Below, piece by piece: positions 14,181 through 21,562 of a stretch of 34,391 bases of DNA (position 1 is its first letter; every line of letters begins with the position of its first letter). The DNA is from a virus (taxonomy: Duplodnaviria > Caudoviricetes): positions 1 to 34,391 of IMG/VR virus record IMGVR_UViG_3300002541_000010; one strand, given 5' to 3'. The notes beneath the pieces were generated by a model. It saw only the letters and a program-made list of their open reading frames with translations. It was not told where the DNA came from and did no database searches. Both the position numbers and the translations under genes were made by a program.

Positions 14181-14477
14181 TTACTCAATCCTATCTATTC
14201 CATATTCAACAGCACATTCATGCTCAATTCTGCACCCTCTTGCTTCTTGCCATCCTTGTGCAAAATATGCCACATCCGCTTTTGATAGATATTCTATGGA
14301 ACGCGCTAAATATTCAAGTGGTTTAGCATTTGAATCAAAATCGTCAAAGAATGTGTCAAGTACTTCTACTTCTTCTCCAATAAGTTCCTTCGCTTTTTGA
14401 ATTGCATGTTCTCTTTCTTTGAGGATTTCTTCATCACTTTTACCTCTCATTGGTTGTGAAATAAATAATTTCTTCAT
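14181..14477 (-). CDS. DUF4406-like protein (nucleoside 2-deoxyribosyltransferase-like fold)
   Basis: KLFISQPMRG, LSKADVAYF and GWQEARGCRIEH motifs. Confidence 0.8.
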   Translation of the reverse strand: MKKLFISQPMRGKSDEEILKEREHAIQKAKELIGEEVEVLDTFFDDFDSNAKPLEYLARSIEYLSKADVAYFAQGWQEARGCRIEHECAVEYGIDRIE

Positions 14478-15652: not shown

Positions 15653-17002
15653 CTACGGAATTATGTCTGCTTGCTCCGGTATTTTGCTTTTTGCTGTTTC
15701 TTCATCTTCCCCGTACCATTTCATACGATATTCCCAAAGTGGCATGACGCCCATAGCAACATCCTGCCGGTCTTGCTGACGTTCGGTTTCTTCGTCCGTG
15801 AGAATGCTATCCTTAAAGTCACATATAAATTCATAACCGCTTGTTGTAAGTCCGTTATAAAATGCCAGTGCGTCAACCAAATCAGATAAGCAATCTTTCA
15901 GGTTGCTCTGTATGGCTGTAACCGTGTTATATTTGCGTTTCTTTGCTGCCTTTACTTCTGTGGCTGTCTTTTCCACGTATGCCGGATTGGATAAATCTCC
16001 GTACGCAAGGCCGACGGCAAATTCTATGTTCCTCTTGTATTCTTCTAGGCCTTTGATTATGGACTGTTCCCTAAATTCAGGTGAGAATACCTCGAACAGC
16101 TCTTTGCCGTTTCCCATTTCTACGTCAACAGCACGATATAATCTTTTGTTGAGCTTGGGTAATTTCCAATCACCTGTATTCTTATTAAGTTTCATTGCTG
16201 TGGCGTCTACGTGTACCGCACGTTCACCTGATTCAAATTCCCAGTCTAACCTTGCAAATTGTATGTCGGCCTTTTTAATTAAGTCTTTGGCGGCATCAAA
16301 AATTGACACGCCGTTATATGACCTATCAATGGTATTCTTAATCGGGTTGCGATAGTACCCAAAATCAGGTTTAAAGAATGGATATGTAACTTCTGGGATA
16401 AGATTAGCCCAGTCACTTACTTCTGTCAGGCTTACCTCCACACCGAGGGAATTGATGTTTTTTGAATGATAAGCCTTATTTATAATTGTGAGTCCATTTT
16501 TGTCTACGGCGTGATATTCAAAACGCCTATAAATATCATCTTTGGCAATCTGTTTTGTCTCAACAAAAATAACTTTTGTTAATCTGCCCTGACTGTTAAA
16601 TTCCAATGGGATGTAATTGCCTTGCGTGACACATTCGACCTTATCTCCACCTAATGGCTTAATAATAAATGATCCAAGGGCTAGTCCGCTTTGCAAATCC
16701 TCATTTAAATCCCGGATAGCAGATTGATATATCTTGTCCAACTTCTCAACCGTAACCTTGCTTGTCATTTCATTTAAGGCAATATTGGCAAATTCTTTGA
16801 CTATCCCCTGTTCTAACCTCAATGAGTGAACTATATCGTTTACCCAAGGAGCTTCGCCTTTATACATCTTCTCCCAAAGTTCAATTCGTTCTATCATTTC
16901 ATCTGAGATTGCCGGGTCTATATCAAAAACTTGCTTTATGGTTTTAACAGGAAACATACGCCTTACCACATCCTTTACAAATTTAACGATGCGTTCAAAC
17001 AT
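15653..17002 (-). CDS. Portal protein (A118/SPP1 gp6-like; start revised to MFERI)
   Basis: ATG overlaps terminase TAA; GVSIF, WEFESGER, KTATEV and DFKDSI motifs. Confidence 0.92.
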   Translation of the reverse strand: MFERIVKFVKDVVRRMFPVKTIKQVFDIDPAISDEMIERIELWEKMYKGEAPWVNDIVHSLRLEQGIVKEFANIALNEMTSKVTVEKLDKIYQSAIRDLNEDLQSGLALGSFIIKPLGGDKVECVTQGNYIPLEFNSQGRLTKVIFVETKQIAKDDIYRRFEYHAVDKNGLTIINKAYHSKNINSLGVEVSLTEVSDWANLIPEVTYPFFKPDFGYYRNPIKNTIDRSYNGVSIFDAAKDLIKKADIQFARLDWEFESGERAVHVDATAMKLNKNTGDWKLPKLNKRLYRAVDVEMGNGKELFEVFSPEFREQSIIKGLEEYKRNIEFAVGLAYGDLSNPAYVEKTATEVKAAKKRKYNTVTAIQSNLKDCLSDLVDALAFYNGLTTSGYEFICDFKDSILTDEETERQQDRQDVAMGVMPLWEYRMKWYGEDEETAKSKIPEQADIIP

Positions 17003-19008
17003 TACTGCCCCCTCCGTTTCCATACCGGATTCATGGCATATCTAACTGCGTCTATAGCATGATTATTTTTATCAGGATAACCGCTTATGATATTACCTTC
17101 TTTGTCTCTCTCGTATTCATAATTTAAAAATTCTTCTGCTGTATAAGGGCATCTTCTGTTATCTATAATGATTTCACTTAATGATTGCAACCACTTCATG
17201 GAATAATCAACGCTTCCGGGGCCTTTTTCGGCCCCTCTTGCTAATAATCCGTATGCTTTATAATCGCTTACTGATTTTTGCTCAGCACTGTCGCAGGTGA
17301 TTAAGTCATTTTCAGTTATACCTAATTCCCTGAGTTTATTTGCTGTCTCTTGGTTGGATTGTTTCCAGCATCTATATTCCATGAAGATATACAATTTATG
17401 CCTTGCCGAATCATAATGCATACGGCTGAAATGATACGGGTCAGGGTACCAGCCCCAGTCAACGCCATTATATATTCGGTCAAACTCTTTAATTTCTGCG
17501 TCTGTAATTTCTCTTATAGTAACATTATCGAATATATTTCCGCCTGTACCATTGGCTACGCCTAGATATTCATTTTCATAAGCTGTAGGATTGACTTCCT
17601 TTAAGAATTCTGCTTCGTCTATAAATGGTTTACCAAGCCATTCTTTTGGCACGTCTAAATATGTGCTTGGTATTACTAATCTCGTAACCTTTGGTACCTT
17701 GATATATTTGTTTGCCCAGTTATTTGCGCTCTTAGGAGGGTTAAATGACTTAAATACCCATGCTTTTTCGCCGCCACGGATAACTGATTGCTCGATTTTT
17801 CGTACAGCTTCCTCGCCCTGGAATTGGTCCAATTCCTCAAACCATATTATACCGATATATCCAAACGGCACTTTAATAGATTTTATCTTTCCCGGATCAT
17901 CCGTACCGCGGAAATATATCTTTTGGCCTGTGCTTTTTCGGGTAATCTCCAGGGGACTAACCGTACAATAAAATTCATCTTCCAGTCCCAGCGCTTCGAT
18001 GGCCCATTGCATCTGTGCATATACAGATGTCCTAAGAGTGTCGGCAACCTGACGTACTATTACGGCATGTATTTCTTCGTTTTTCATCAGTAAATCAATA
18101 ATTTGTAAGCTGATGAAAGAAGATTTTGTAGAGCCACGACCGCCAGGAAAAACATATTCAATATGCTCCCTGTTCTGTATATCAAAAGCCACTGGTGCGA
18201 ACTTTGGAATAATCATTGTCGCCGGAATACCTGTATAGCGAACACCCTCGGAACTTATGTCGGGCTCTATCTTCTTTTGTTCGAGCTCAAGCTTTTTATT
18301 CTCATATTCAATCTTGTGTTTGTCCAGAGGGTTTATGAGGAAGTATTTATCAAGCCATTCCAGCGACTTTTGCTTATCGGCAAGTTTTATTGTAACTCCT
18401 TCCCTGCCTTGTTTAACCTCTTGAATTATTTGTGTGTCCAAATTGGAGGATTCTTTCAATAGTACTTTATTTATTTGATACTCTTCACCATCTTTGGTTT
18501 CAAGCGTTTCTCTACCAAACTCCACATAGTCGCCTATATCAGCAAAAGCTATGCGCATATGCAAATCAACTATATCTTCTGTGTTTGCAACTATCTGCTG
18601 GCGCTTTATCTCCTGTAATCTTTGAATTTCAGCTCTAATCTTAGGATTTCTAAGGAGATTGCTACCCTCAACCATTGCTGTATTGTAGCTGCATCCATAA
18701 GCTTTTAGATAGCTCTGTGTTGCATTAAATATCTTACTGTAATATATGCAAAAAAGCCTTTGTTCTGGAGTAAGGTTTTCATTCAACATGGTTTCCCTTG
18801 TTCCATCATCAAAAGGCTTTGAATACTCTCTTTGTGTGCATACTTTTTCTTGTTTGGTGTGCATACTTTTTTTATTTTTAGTCCAGTATCTTTGTTTCCA
18901 TGACTTAACTGTATTTAATGATACACCGTATTTCTCGGCTATATCTTTATATTTCATACCAGCCATGTAATCTTTTTCAGCCAATTCATAGGTCCTTACT
19001 TCATCCAT
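17002..19008 (-). CDS. terL: Terminase: small subunit fused in frame to PBSX-type large subunit (668 aa)
   Basis: N-terminal HTH plus [12 protein letters not shown]...[13 protein letters not shown] (TerS); GGRGSTKS Walker A, IWFEE Walker B, SFNPP, GVDWG and NHAIDAVRY (TerL). Confidence 0.92.
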
Positions 19009-19050: not shown

Positions 19051-19074
19051 AAAAAAGCATCCCAAAGGATGCTT
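19051..19074 (-). terminator. Intrinsic terminator upstream of terminase
   Basis: AAGCATCC-TTTG-GGATGCTT followed by T-run. Confidence 0.7.
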
Positions 19075-19267: not shown

Positions 19268-19379
19268 TCACTCGGGCAAGGATTTGCACCCTGCAACCGG
19301 GTACCACTCTCGCGGGTTTCGATTTAATCCCTATCCACCCACGGTCTGTGGCTGCGTCTACCTATTCCGCCACCGAGTG
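19268..19379 (-). ncRNA. tRNA-like RNA with extended anticodon arm
   Basis: Acceptor CACTCGG/CCGAGTG, tRNA-Leu-type D arm TG-GCGGAATAGGTAGACGC, T arm GCAGGG-TGCAAAT-CCTTGC; no canonical 7-nt anticodon loop. Confidence 0.8.
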
Positions 19380-19562
19380 TTATATATCAATACTTACTAC
19401 TTCAATCTTCTCTATTTCATCTTTAACTTTATTAATAACCTTTTTTATTTCGCTTTCTACCTGATATAGTGTTCGCAATATTATCAATAGTTTTTCTTTC
19501 TGCATCTTTAAATCGGGCTCACTTTTTATCACTTCATTTATTAATAAATTAATCTTATCCAT
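19380..19562 (-). CDS. 60-aa hypothetical protein
   Basis: Overlaps upstream gene end with SD-like GGGGGAAG; stop abuts the tRNA-like RNA. Confidence 0.55.
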   Translation of the reverse strand: MDKINLLINEVIKSEPDLKMQKEKLLIILRTLYQVESEIKKVINKVKDEIEKIEVVSIDI

Positions 19563-19894
19563 TCTGCTTCCCCCCAGTTTTTAATTTCATTTACACCAAA
19601 TCCGTCTATATCGCAGGCTCCGCTATCTGTTGGAATATAATGTGCATTGGGGTGTTGAGGATACATAAACTCAATCATTGCGAAATTTGCAATATCAGCT
19701 AAAAATTCAGCGTTTCCTGTTTCTTTATATTTTTGTAGTCTCTTTTCTAGGCTGTTAATAGCATTAATGGTTTTTTCGGTTTTGTAATTCTCTTTGATAG
19801 ATCCGTATTTGTAGTAAGACATAACCATCATATTCTTACGGATTTCGTCAAACCGTTCTGAATATTCAGTTTTAAGAATTTCCTCCCTATTCAC
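19541..19894 (-). CDS. Putative all-alpha NTP pyrophosphatase (MazG-like)
   Basis: YKYG followed by helical segment and EFLADIANFAMIEF, resembling the ExxDxxN motif of MazG-like proteins; SD GGAGGT. Confidence 0.55.
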   Translation of the reverse strand: MNREEILKTEYSERFDEIRKNMMVMSYYKYGSIKENYKTEKTINAINSLEKRLQKYKETGNAEFLADIANFAMIEFMYPQHPNAHYIPTDSGACDIDGFGVNEIKNWGEAEWIRLIY

Positions 19895-19897
19895 GCC

Positions 19898-21013
19898 TTA
19901 CCTCCAATTCTTCCAATCATCTGTTATAGCTTTATAGAATGGAATATATTCTTGTTTGATCCGAGTTACTGTTCCATCATCATCAACATGTACTTCTACA
20001 ATCCAGCCACCCATATGTGCCGATATTTGCTTACCTCTCATCCATGGCGTCTGCGCGCATACCGTTCCGCTTTGGATTGCGTGTACGTTTCTGTAGAAGA
20101 TATATTCTGCCTTATGGTAATGTCCAACTGCTAATATATTAGGTTTTTCACCGCCTGACATAGCTTCAATCATTTTTTGCGTCTTATATGAGATTGCATA
20201 TGCCGTGCCATCTATGGGATGTCTTAATTCTAATGTGCAGTTTGGTGTCAGGTTGATTACTGCGCTCATGTATCCGAGATAAATCATATCCGGCCGTTTT
20301 TCTGCTATCTTGCATCCAATGTCTAATCCGCATATTTTTACATAGCTTATATCATGATTACCGGTAATAAAGTGTGTTGTAATACCTTCTCGTTTTGGGA
20401 ATACTCTTACTATTTCTTCAATGTGTTCATCTGCACCATGATTATATAATTCATATTCGTGGCCCGGACGCATTTTCTCGCCTTCGTCTATATCGCCAGT
20501 ATGATAGACCGTATCAATTCCCTCTGACTTAAAAATGTCGTATAGCTTATGCAAATGGGTAATTTGCGTGTATTTTGAATTGATGTGCGTATCGCCAATG
20601 ATACCAAATCTTATTATTTTCTCGCCTGTCCATTCTCTTTCTATCCTATTTTCTGTTGGTACGACGATATTAGATATTTGCACAATGTCGCCAATACGCT
20701 GTATATTGTATCCTTGATTTTTTATATCGGATATGATACTTTCTGCTGTTGTTAATGATATATTTAGTTTTTCTGCTAACTCACTTATCTCAATGCCTTT
20801 CTTTAGAGTTTCGATAATGTCAAATTTCTGTTTATTTTCTTTCTTTTGTACCGGCTCACTCATTTGGTAGCCATTTCGCCAATTACGTATCATTCGCATC
20901 ATGCTTTCGATAGAGCCGTTAGAGTGCTGGTTAAATATTTTATATATCTCAGTAGCTTCAACTCCATCATCCGCCATTTCTATACATTTTTTCTTTATCT
21001 CCAAAGGTATCAA
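19898..21013 (-). CDS. HTH-fused calcineurin-like metallophosphoesterase (371 aa, TTG start revised)
   Basis: GDTH, HTGDIDEG, GNHD, RHP and GHYH motifs; N-terminal helix-turn-helix (ISELAEKLNISLTTAESII). Confidence 0.88.
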   Translation of the reverse strand: MIPLEIKKKCIEMADDGVEATEIYKIFNQHSNGSIESMMRMIRNWRNGYQMSEPVQKKENKQKFDIIETLKKGIEISELAEKLNISLTTAESIISDIKNQGYNIQRIGDIVQISNIVVPTENRIEREWTGEKIIRFGIIGDTHINSKYTQITHLHKLYDIFKSEGIDTVYHTGDIDEGEKMRPGHEYELYNHGADEHIEEIVRVFPKREGITTHFITGNHDISYVKICGLDIGCKIAEKRPDMIYLGYMSAVINLTPNCTLELRHPIDGTAYAISYKTQKMIEAMSGGEKPNILAVGHYHKAEYIFYRNVHAIQSGTVCAQTPWMRGKQISAHMGGWIVEVHVDDDGTVTRIKQEYIPFYKAITDDWKNWR

Positions 21014-21033
21014 ATTATCACCGTCTTTCCATG

Positions 21034-21067
21034 AAAAAGGCATCCGGCCGCAGCTAACCGGATGCCT
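21034..21067 (-). terminator. Strong hairpin plus U-tract just after late promoter
   Basis: AGGCATCCGG-N10-CCGGATGCCT then TTTT. Confidence 0.7.
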
Positions 21068-21104
21068 AATCTATATAAAAGGAGGTTTATCTTATGTATT
21101 TCAT

Positions 21105-21157
21105 TATAATGTCTCTAAATATAATTTAACATATTTTTGTGTGCCATTCTATGCCAT
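21105..21157 (-). promoter_or_regulatory. Putative late promoter with activator-binding direct repeat
   Basis: ATGGCA twice at 10-bp spacing (21142-21147, 21152-21157) overlapping the activator stop, followed by an AT-rich -10 region; this layout matches RinA/ArpU-type regulators. Confidence 0.55.
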
Positions 21158-21562
21158 CTTGAAATTACTTAAAGCATTACTATGTAGCCTATGAGTTTGT
21201 CTCCAACTATAATTAAGTTCAACGCATATTTCTTCCCAGCTTTTAAATTCCAGGTACCGCTTTCTAAGAATATCAGCTTCTATCCCGTCCGGCATATCAG
21301 CTATTTTGTCTTCTATTTCCAACTTTCGCTTTATGCATTCTGCCCTCAATCTTACTATCTTTGTGTATACCTCTTCTATTCGGACCATTACATCAGACAA
21401 ATCCGTCTGATTATGTGCCTTAGGCATGTCCGAAATAGAAGGAATCTTAGCTGATTCTTCCGTTTCCCGTAAAGACTGTAACTGATCTTCTAATGATTTT
21501 AGTTTATTGCAAAGATTTTTATAGCTGTTAAGGTATTCTTTCTTTTTATCGTTGTCTGTCAA
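21149..21562 (-). CDS. Late transcriptional activator (ArpU/RinA-like, sigma-4-like HTH)
   Basis: KKEYLNSY, ILRKRYL..KSWEEICVELNYSWRQTHRLHSNAL; last early gene. Confidence 0.85.
   Translation of the reverse strand: MTDNDKKKEYLNSYKNLCNKLKSLEDQLQSLRETEESAKIPSISDMPKAHNQTDLSDVMVRIEEVYTKIVRLRAECIKRKLEIEDKIADMPDGIEADILRKRYLEFKSWEEICVELNYSWRQTHRLHSNALSNFKMA

What the first reader, a model, noticed from the sequence alone, without database searches (positions are those of the whole stretch)
19268..21013. Candidate uncharacterised system at the head of the late transcript: DP1-like phosphoesterase + MazG-like protein + 60-aa ORF + tRNA mimic
Seen: four tightly coupled elements (gaps of 3 nt, overlap, 0 nt) between late promoter and terminase. 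The phosphoesterase motifs GDIDEGEKMRPGHEYEL, PNILAVGHYH and SGTVCAQT resemble, from memory, those of the archaeal PolD DP1 exonuclease subunit, here fused to HTH domains. Known: calcineurin-like and MazG-like folds hydrolyse nucleotides and nucleic-acid ends. Inference: a module acting on nucleotide signals, the stringent response or RNA/DNA ends during packaging, possibly counter-defence, with the RNA as cofactor or substrate. The distant DUF4406 gene may belong to it. No function is demonstrated.
Basis: partly seen in the sequence, partly recalled or inferred. Interest (0 to 1): 0.72.

Follow-up and report, generated by a model that had tools for sequence, protein, structure and literature searches.

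The report
Phage nucleotide-enzyme cassette beside tRNA mimic
The four neighbouring parts are real but do not stay together across phages: two are unannotated enzymes that likely break down DNA building blocks (one closely resembles the proofreading subunit of an archaeal DNA polymerase), and the tRNA look-alike is a separate, widespread, uncatalogued phage RNA that marks the same swappable stretch.

Summary
All four parts exist as described. They are not a conserved four-part system: among 91 distinct relatives of the phosphoesterase, 0 had the RNA nearby and 4 had the small helical protein; the 60-aa ORF was found only in this phage lineage. One near-identical phage contig keeps the protein block but has a different RNA centre. 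Two separate things are new. (1) The phosphoesterase is a free-standing, HTH-fused relative of PolD DP1 (VIA Z 20.9, versus at most 15.7 for Mre11), from a family of about 2,800 clusters with no dedicated model. It recurs with a helical diphosphohydrolase-like gene (this protein, DUF5664 or DUF6378, interchangeably) and DUF4406, which suggests a nucleotide-breakdown route; no activity is shown. (2) The RNA belongs to a phage family with a covarying 7-bp acceptor plus 6-bp T stem, no anticodon, almost never CCA, and a 22-71 nt variable centre; no Rfam match. This scan noted that RNA family before on other DNA (e1-1965738, e1-3600223). Verdict: observation confirmed, system interpretation only partly supported.

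The parts
21149..21562 (-). ArpU/DUF1492-like late transcription activator (upstream context)
   Evidence: PHROG 36 E 3e-23; Pfam DUF1492 E 1e-5; TIGR01637 ArpU E 0.002, under cut-off
21038..21067 (-). 12-bp hairpin plus U run; upstream boundary of the cassette
   Evidence: terminator-like site; contigs in runs X4, X6 and X7 diverge exactly behind 21066
19898..21013 (-). Two N-terminal HTH-type domains plus a DP1-like calcineurin-type phosphoesterase domain (residues about 121-363)
   Evidence: Pfam Metallophos_2 E 2e-8, HTH_11 E 2e-4; model pLDDT 90; DP1 in the top 10 Foldseek rows; VIA Z 20.9; hhalign probability 98.3
19541..19894 (-). 117-aa all-helical protein, likely a new family of all-alpha NTP pyrophosphohydrolases akin to DUF5664/DUF6378
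   Evidence: no significant Pfam, PHROG or NCBIfam family; 709 relatives; model pLDDT 90; weak fold matches; takes the gene slot of PF18909 or DUF6378
19380..19562 (-). 60-aa AT-rich orphan ORF, found only in this phage lineage
   Evidence: no family; only self in viral contigs; no Atlas hit; intact in near-identical relatives; GC 0.25
19268..19379 (-). tRNA-like RNA: 7-bp acceptor, Leu-type D arm, 59-nt centre without a conserved anticodon arm, 6-bp T stem with UGCAAAU loop, no CCA
   Evidence: sequence; family of about 530 IMG/VR stretches; geometry and covariation; no Rfam or ARAGORN call
19055..19074 (-). terminator-like hairpin between the RNA and the terminase
14181..14477 (-). DUF4406 (NDT-like) gene 5 kb downstream; probable functional partner
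   Evidence: Pfam PF14359 E 2e-6; neighbourhood counts

Best explanation
This is a swappable accessory stretch between the late activator and the terminase, holding two independent things: a gene pair that likely breaks nucleotides down, and a tRNA-shaped RNA that likely serves as a cut site or decoy for host tRNA-handling proteins. Shown: the parts, their folds and families, their mostly independent distribution, the recurring order phosphoesterase - helical diphosphohydrolase-like gene - DUF4406, and exchange of the RNA centre within its conserved arms. Inferred (about 50%): the phosphoesterase is a two-metal 3'-5' exonuclease/phosphodiesterase like DP1 that releases dNMPs from DNA ends or oligonucleotides, its HTH domains replacing DP1's OB fold for binding nucleic acid; the 117-aa protein turns (d)NTPs into (d)NMPs; DUF4406 removes the base from dNMPs. 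Together they would clear unwanted, modified or alarm nucleotides late in infection. Inferred (about 45%): the RNA folds inside the late transcript, keeps the D/T-loop elbow, and is cut by RNase P or RNase Z or binds elbow-reading proteins; it does not decode. Its conserved arms also act as crossover points for cassette exchange. The 60-aa ORF is a passenger.
For: Independence: RNA near 0 of 91 phosphoesterase groups, 71 of which had at least 1200 bp downstream; phosphoesterase in 0 of 120 RNA loci; RNA in 2 of 79 loci of the helical protein, about 2.5 kb away. Exchange: a 3025-nt contig in run X6 matches 19356-21066 with 2 differences and 1 gap, then has 84 other letters in place of 62 inside the RNA; another X6 contig has the window's RNA behind a different upstream sequence. 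Enzyme pair: adjacent in L030, L294 and L349, one gene apart in L044; the middle slot holds PF18909 in L291 and DUF6378 in L292, each followed by DUF4406; 14 of 23 NDT-like hits lie within 800 bp, p 0.0013 against locus length. DP1: all five metal motifs present, GNHD, H265 and H300 invariant in 47 of 47; DP1-type GDxxDG..Y.G and QxQT.F segments align. Precedent: DUF5664 converts dATP, dGTP and dUTP to dNMP, and NDT-family hydrolases act on dNMP (PMC12884076, passages and section 19). RNA: 98.1% of cells paired, 11 of 16 pairs change on both sides, slid controls 36-45%; CCA in 2 of 109.
Against: No activity, transcript or phenotype was measured. 72 of 91 phosphoesterase groups had none of the helical protein, DUF5664, DUF1599 or an NDT-like gene within 800 bp by my profiles, so the pathway is optional at best. 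Two of the four pairings (L030, L044) were found through the helical protein, and the NDT profile was seeded and iterated on these same loci, which inflates the counts. The helical protein's fold matches are not significant (best E 0.45; Z 7.0 for a helical bundle), and it lacks a conserved ExxE...ExxD motif. DP1's pocket tyrosine is Arg in the window protein and in 39 of 110 relatives, so the substrate may differ. In this phage DUF4406 is 5 kb away. All four parts do stay together in close relatives (L329, 94% DNA identity).
Confidence: 0.6

Rival explanations
1. One reading: the four parts form one dedicated system, with the RNA as cofactor, guide or substrate of the enzymes.
For: Tight spacing. 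The block from hairpin to RNA moved at over 99% identity into other phage backbones and is whole in L329. An unrelated HTH-calcineurin gene lies near the RNA in 10 of 80 RNA loci, 2-3 genes downstream in most.
Against: RNA near 0 of 91 phosphoesterase groups; 60-aa ORF restricted to one lineage; RNA centre replaced while the proteins stay 99.8% identical; the RNA carries stem changes in L329.
Confidence: 0.08
2. The phosphoesterase acts alone as a host-DNA-degrading or counter-defence nuclease, like mycobacteriophage Gp48; its neighbours share the slot only because this region collects accessory genes.
For: Most relatives have no partner gene nearby and sit in varied places. Gp48, a phage metallophosphoesterase, degrades DNA and silences defence genes (PMC12287305, abstract and sections 10-11). 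The slot around the RNA often holds Tad2-like anti-defence genes (13 of 80 loci).
Against: No Gp48-bearing mycobacteriophage matched by tblastn (1 record of 50,697 matched, a Halorubrum virus). Gp48 is an early gene; this one is placed late. Three different helical families fill the slot between this gene and DUF4406.
Confidence: 0.2
3. The phosphoesterase is an HTH-targeted end-processing or proofreading nuclease for packaging or concatemer maturation, linked to the terminase.
For: Position before the terminase here; a match to the window's terminase in 12 of 80 loci, the window's own copy included; DP1-like pocket for unpaired 3' ends (PMC4996933 passages).
Against: Many relatives lie among replication or accessory genes; the N-terminal HTH is poorly conserved (mean column identity 0.32); most similar phages package without it.
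Confidence: 0.1

Closest known systems
PolD DP1 proofreading exonuclease (PDB 5ihe, 6t8h; PMC4996933, passages read)
   Same: Best fold match (Z 20.9, rmsd 3.2 over 229 residues); five metal motifs; DP1-type loop and QxQT.F segment; aromatic at the F589 position in 103 of 110 relatives (residue mapping inferred from the alignment)
   Different: No OB fold in the aligned part, two HTH-type domains instead; no DP2 found in the record (record 78% complete); Y415 position is Arg; viral, free-standing
DUF5664 dATP/dGTP diphosphohydrolase (PF18909), DUF6378, DUF1599, AF0060: all-alpha NTP pyrophosphohydrolase-like families
   Same: 16 of the 50 listed BFVD rows belong to these families, top probability 0.92; AF0060 (2p06) is the top VIA row and is in this superfamily (PMC2238974 passage); KYG motif; same gene slot
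   Different: No Pfam match; no significant E-value; profile comparisons with small alignments not significant; own invariant motif G-N-x-E-x-L-x-D-x-A-N
DUF5664/Dut plus NDT-like DmtZ enzymes of Z-genome phages (PMC12884076)
   Same: A diphosphohydrolase and an NDT-fold enzyme acting in series on nucleotides
   Different: No PurZ/PurA and no polymerase among the 36 ORFs scanned; adds a DP1-like phosphoesterase
Mycobacteriophage Gp48 metallophosphoesterase (PMC12287305)
   Same: Phage calcineurin-like enzyme with five motifs
   Different: No sequence match seen in the phage collection; early gene; not described as DP1-like in the parts read
YrlA Y RNAs (PMC4201824, passages), tRNA-Sec (8/5, 9/4) and allo-tRNAs (8/4, 9/3; PMC7609411 passages, PMC5389517 abstract start)
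   Same: tRNA elbow mimicry; 13-bp acceptor-T helix as in tRNA-Sec; M. smegmatis YrlA with a 7-bp acceptor stem is cut by RNase P
   Different: 7/6 split; no anticodon arm; UGCAAAU T loop; no Rfam match; no TROVE/Ro60 gene in the record

Membership tests
Calcineurin-like phosphoesterase superfamily | Five metal-binding motifs (DxH, GD, GNH, H, GHxH) on the two-layer sheet fold | tested here: met
   D141/H143, D174, N219/H220, H265, H298/H300; Pfam over cut-off; fold
PolD DP1 subunit | DP1-type catalytic domain | tested here: met
PolD DP1 subunit | Full-length DP1 model with OB domain | tested here: not met
   NCBIfam DP1 models 33 bits against a cut-off of 445, C-terminal stretch only; N-terminus is HTH
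PolD DP1 subunit | DP2 partner in the same genome | tested here: inconclusive
   none in the record, which is 78% complete
PolD DP1 subunit | 3'-5' exonuclease activity on mispaired ends | not testable with these tools
   needs an assay
MazG (PF03819) | Pfam match and conserved ExxE...ExxD metal motif (motif recalled) | tested here: not met
   no Pfam match; conserved acids are E10, E63, D67, E75, D90, giving ExxxD only
All-alpha NTP pyrophosphohydrolase superfamily | Helical subunit fold | tested here: inconclusive
   convergent weak matches: Z 7.0, rmsd 3.6, 78 aligned to AF0060; 16 of 50 BFVD rows, none at E 0.001; Atlas 0.81-0.85
All-alpha NTP pyrophosphohydrolase superfamily | (d)NTP hydrolysis | not testable with these tools
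   needs an assay
Canonical tRNA | 7/5 acceptor-T branch | tested here: not met
   7/6 in 105 of 109 and 34 of 36; the sixth T pair covaries
Canonical tRNA | Conserved anticodon arm | tested here: not met
   centre 22-71 nt and unalignable; ARAGORN called 0 of 113 long and 1 short member, without an anticodon
Canonical tRNA | Elbow letters U8, A14, A15:U48, G18, G19, C56 | tested here: met
   U8 in 109 of 109 and U48 in 79 of 79; the D- and T-loop letters were fixed by the search pattern
YrlA Y RNA | Rfam match and Ro60/TROVE gene nearby | tested here: not met
   no Rfam match over the RNA at E 5; no TROVE in the record, 78% complete
   together only within this lineage

The most novel reading that the evidence does not exclude
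The phosphoesterase, the helical protein and DUF4406 form an undescribed phage counter-defence pathway that destroys nucleotide danger signals (DNA end or dNTP to dNMP to free base), built on the only large free-standing viral sister clade of PolD's proofreading subunit; the 7/6 tRNA look-alike is a general phage punctuation or decoy RNA that lets host RNase P or Z release such cassettes from the late transcript.
Probability: 0.2. Interest if true: 0.75.

Novelty: new variant of a known kind. Interest (0 to 1): 0.5.

Why it matters
DP1-type proofreading is described as unique to PolD (PMC4996933 passage). A family of thousands of viral HTH-fused DP1-like enzymes gives a testable handle on where that subunit came from and what else the fold does. 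The interchange of three helical families between this gene and DUF4406 gives a direct assay for two unknown families. Modified dNMPs are now known defence triggers (bioRxiv 10.64898/2026.01.15.699771, passages), so phage enzymes that remove them would matter. The RNA family is common, is missed by ARAGORN and Rfam, was unannotated in the 8 full or two-piece matches in cultured Lactobacillus/Lacticaseibacillus phages, and has a 7/6 geometry not seen in the tRNA reviews searched.

Tried and rejected
Single-sequence PDB search of the phosphoesterase found nothing; only the profile reached DP1. Profile search of the helical protein against PDB sequences: 0 matches; Foldseek PDB: none at E 0.001. 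Profile-profile comparisons with 3- and 4-sequence DUF1599-like and DUF5664 alignments were not significant. Complex prediction of the phosphoesterase with two copies of the helical protein gave no answer. PADLOC matched only the HTH region. Expression: one RNA library held five short contigs in patches and none over the RNA; contigs cannot show transcription. B. cereus tRNA-Other was considered; it carries a Trp anticodon and its paper gave no structure passage to compare. The RNA pattern was absent from 5 of 5 records holding the enzyme cluster, most incomplete. An own sigma-A promoter for the RNA: 2 of 65. The HTH-calcineurin near the RNA in lactic-acid-bacteria-type loci is not a homologue beyond the HTH. 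Ten paper searches turned up no description of this phosphoesterase family, the gene triad or the 7/6 RNA in listings and passages; the library lacks most subscription papers, Iyer et al. 2013 on nucleotide-modification domains was not held, and no supplements were read, so prior mention cannot be excluded.

Full report
Setting. The window is a 34-kb temperate phage record, 78% complete, with an integrase beside a tRNA-Glu gene. On the minus strand an ArpU/DUF1492-like activator (21562-21149) is followed by a terminator-like hairpin (21067-21038), the four parts, a second terminator-like hairpin (19074-19055) and a fused small-plus-large terminase. RinA-type proteins activate late promoters upstream of terS (PMC3152322, abstract start), so late expression is a fair inference, but no transcript was shown.

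The phosphoesterase. Pfam gives Metallophos_2 and HTH matches. It has 2,218 relatives of similar length and a profile finds 2,831 clusters at 50% identity, 1,263 at E 1e-30 or better (the weakest may include other calcineurin-like proteins). The only match among 50,697 GenBank phage records is a hypothetical protein of a Halorubrum virus. The six best PDB sequence matches of the profile are PolD DP1. The model (pLDDT 90) gives DP1 in the first 10 Foldseek rows and VIA Z 20.9 against at most 16.4 for other phosphodiesterases and 15.7 for Mre11. A 110-sequence profile against two archaeal DP1 proteins gives probability 98.3, E 1e-14 over 204 columns. The metal ligands are conserved in 47 near relatives, except that H143 is Gln in 32 of 47. 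Using the alignment and the pocket residues named in PMC4996933 (passages), I map DP1 F589 to W324 (aromatic in 103 of 110) and Y415 to R182 (Tyr in 51, Arg in 39 of 110). It works like DP1 by fold and active site. It is not a DP1 subunit: the NCBIfam models score 33 bits against 445, and no DP2 was found.

The 117-aa protein. No family model matches it; it has 709 relatives. Its model is all-helical (pLDDT 90). No fold match is significant, but they converge: AF0060, an all-alpha NTP pyrophosphohydrolase (PMC2238974 passage), heads the VIA list at Z 7.0, rmsd 3.6, 78 aligned, with MazZ and two other MazG-like chains at Z 4.1-4.4; 16 of 50 listed BFVD rows are dATP/dGTP diphosphohydrolase, DUF6378 or nucleotide-modification-associated domains; Atlas neighbours with a family are PRA-PH/MazG at 0.81-0.85, a lead only. 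The MazG acidic motif (recalled) is not conserved. It is better placed beside DUF5664 and DUF6378 than in MazG proper.

Gene company. I pooled 149 phosphoesterase loci into 91 groups at 85% identity, leaving out the window's own lineage. The helical protein lay within 800 bp in 4 groups (2 of them found through the helical protein itself), an NDT/DUF4406-like gene was present in 23 and within 800 bp in 14, DUF5664 within 800 bp in 3 and DUF1599 in 1; 19 of 91 had at least one. The RNA was in 0. Pfam on 146 neighbours shows the order phosphoesterase - X - DUF4406 with X = PF18909 (L291), DUF6378 (L292) or the helical protein (L294; also L030), and DUF1599 or PF18909 just upstream in L296 and L303. 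Of 47 distinct loci of the helical protein, 5 had DUF4406/NDT among the one upstream and two downstream genes, and 5 had another calcineurin-like gene within 700 bp by motif search. The link is loose and my NDT profile was trained on these loci, but the replacement of one helical family by another is what a shared function predicts. Tested precedent: DUF5664 turns dATP, dGTP and dUTP into dNMPs and NDT-fold hydrolases cut dNMPs (PMC12884076, passages and section 19). The record has no PurA/PurZ.

The 60-aa ORF. Only the same phage was found in viral contigs and only L328 and L329 among 28 metagenome loci; no Atlas hit. It is a passenger on present evidence.

The RNA. ARAGORN and Rfam miss it. 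In 105 of 109 distinct long members a 7-bp acceptor pairs in register after a 6-bp T stem; U8 is invariant; CCA follows in 2; 34 of 36 short members agree and none has CCA. On 79 aligned members 98.1% of cells pair, 11 of 16 pairs change on both sides, including the sixth T-stem pair, and slid controls give 36-45%. The centre spans 22-71 nt and does not align. In 80 loci with flanks it lies one or two genes after ArpU (13) or RinA (10) genes, near Tad2-like genes (13), or in tRNA clusters. A terminator follows within 300 nt in 19 of 65 against 5 of 65 control windows, and a consensus promoter precedes it in 2 of 65. So it is usually part of a longer transcript. The 13-bp branch recalls tRNA-Sec, but the 7/6 split was not in the passages read (PMC7609411). 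RNase P cuts a YrlA RNA with a 7-bp acceptor stem (PMC4201824 passages), which makes processing plausible; this is untested. Earlier notes of this scan describe what appears to be the same family (e1-1965738, e1-3600223); they are not independent evidence.

Short-range movement. In runs from five other studies (X4, X6, X7, X8, X10) and in X5, contigs cover the protein block at 99% identity or more up to 21064-21066; X4, X6 and X7 show different DNA behind 21066. One 3,025-nt X6 contig continues from the block into an RNA with the same arms and 84 other letters in place of 62; another carries the window's RNA behind different upstream DNA. L329 keeps all four parts at 94% identity with changes in the RNA stems. 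Metagenome contigs can be chimeric, so this is good but not final evidence. It shows a cassette that swaps at the hairpin and within the RNA's conserved arms, with no matching of RNA centre to protein.

Verdict. The four-part system does not. What remains is a large unannotated DP1-like viral enzyme family, a probable new helical diphosphohydrolase family in a loose three-gene cluster with DUF4406, and a widespread 7/6 tRNA look-alike. Mechanisms are inferred from fold and company only. Interest 0.5; new variant of known kinds.

Noticed in passing
window 17002-19008 (-): Small and large terminase are fused in one 668-aa ORF (Terminase_2, Terminase_3, Terminase_3C); identical in L001.
   Followed up: no
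window 19570: Six DNA runs (X4-X8, X10) and L329 lack one base of this homopolymer run, so the helical protein there ends at 112 aa with its stop overlapping the start of the 60-aa ORF; the window's last residues are an extension.
   Followed up: partly
proteins P0252, P0326 and similar 640-740 aa hits: Tandem-duplicated HTH-phosphoesterase proteins whose first copy has degenerate metal motifs; suggests a dimer with one inactive half, as in polymerase B subunits. Source organisms not determined.
   Followed up: partly
proteins P0273, P0302, P0312, P0359, P0366, P0375: Several family members carry inteins, some with LAGLIDADG domains, which is typical of conserved nucleic-acid enzymes (recalled).
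   Followed up: partly
alignment A1, position 143: Motif I DxH is DxQ in 32 of 47 near relatives but His in 97 of 110 distant ones: a clade-specific change of a metal ligand.
   Followed up: partly
L167:703-1851 and 9 similar loci: An unrelated HTH-calcineurin gene lies near the RNA, mostly 2-3 genes downstream, often followed by an HNH gene.
   Followed up: partly
window 21079-21129 (+): Strong ribosome-binding-like sequence and an 11-codon hydrophobic ORF on the opposite strand across the presumed late promoter; the alternative flank in X4, X6 and X7 also starts with such a sequence.
   Followed up: no
OQ850970.1 (L326): The only GenBank phage record matched by the phosphoesterase is a haloarchaeal tailed virus, annotated hypothetical.
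   Followed up: no
L049:3697-3927: An Acb2/Tad1 anti-defence gene lies directly upstream of a relative of the helical protein.
   Followed up: no
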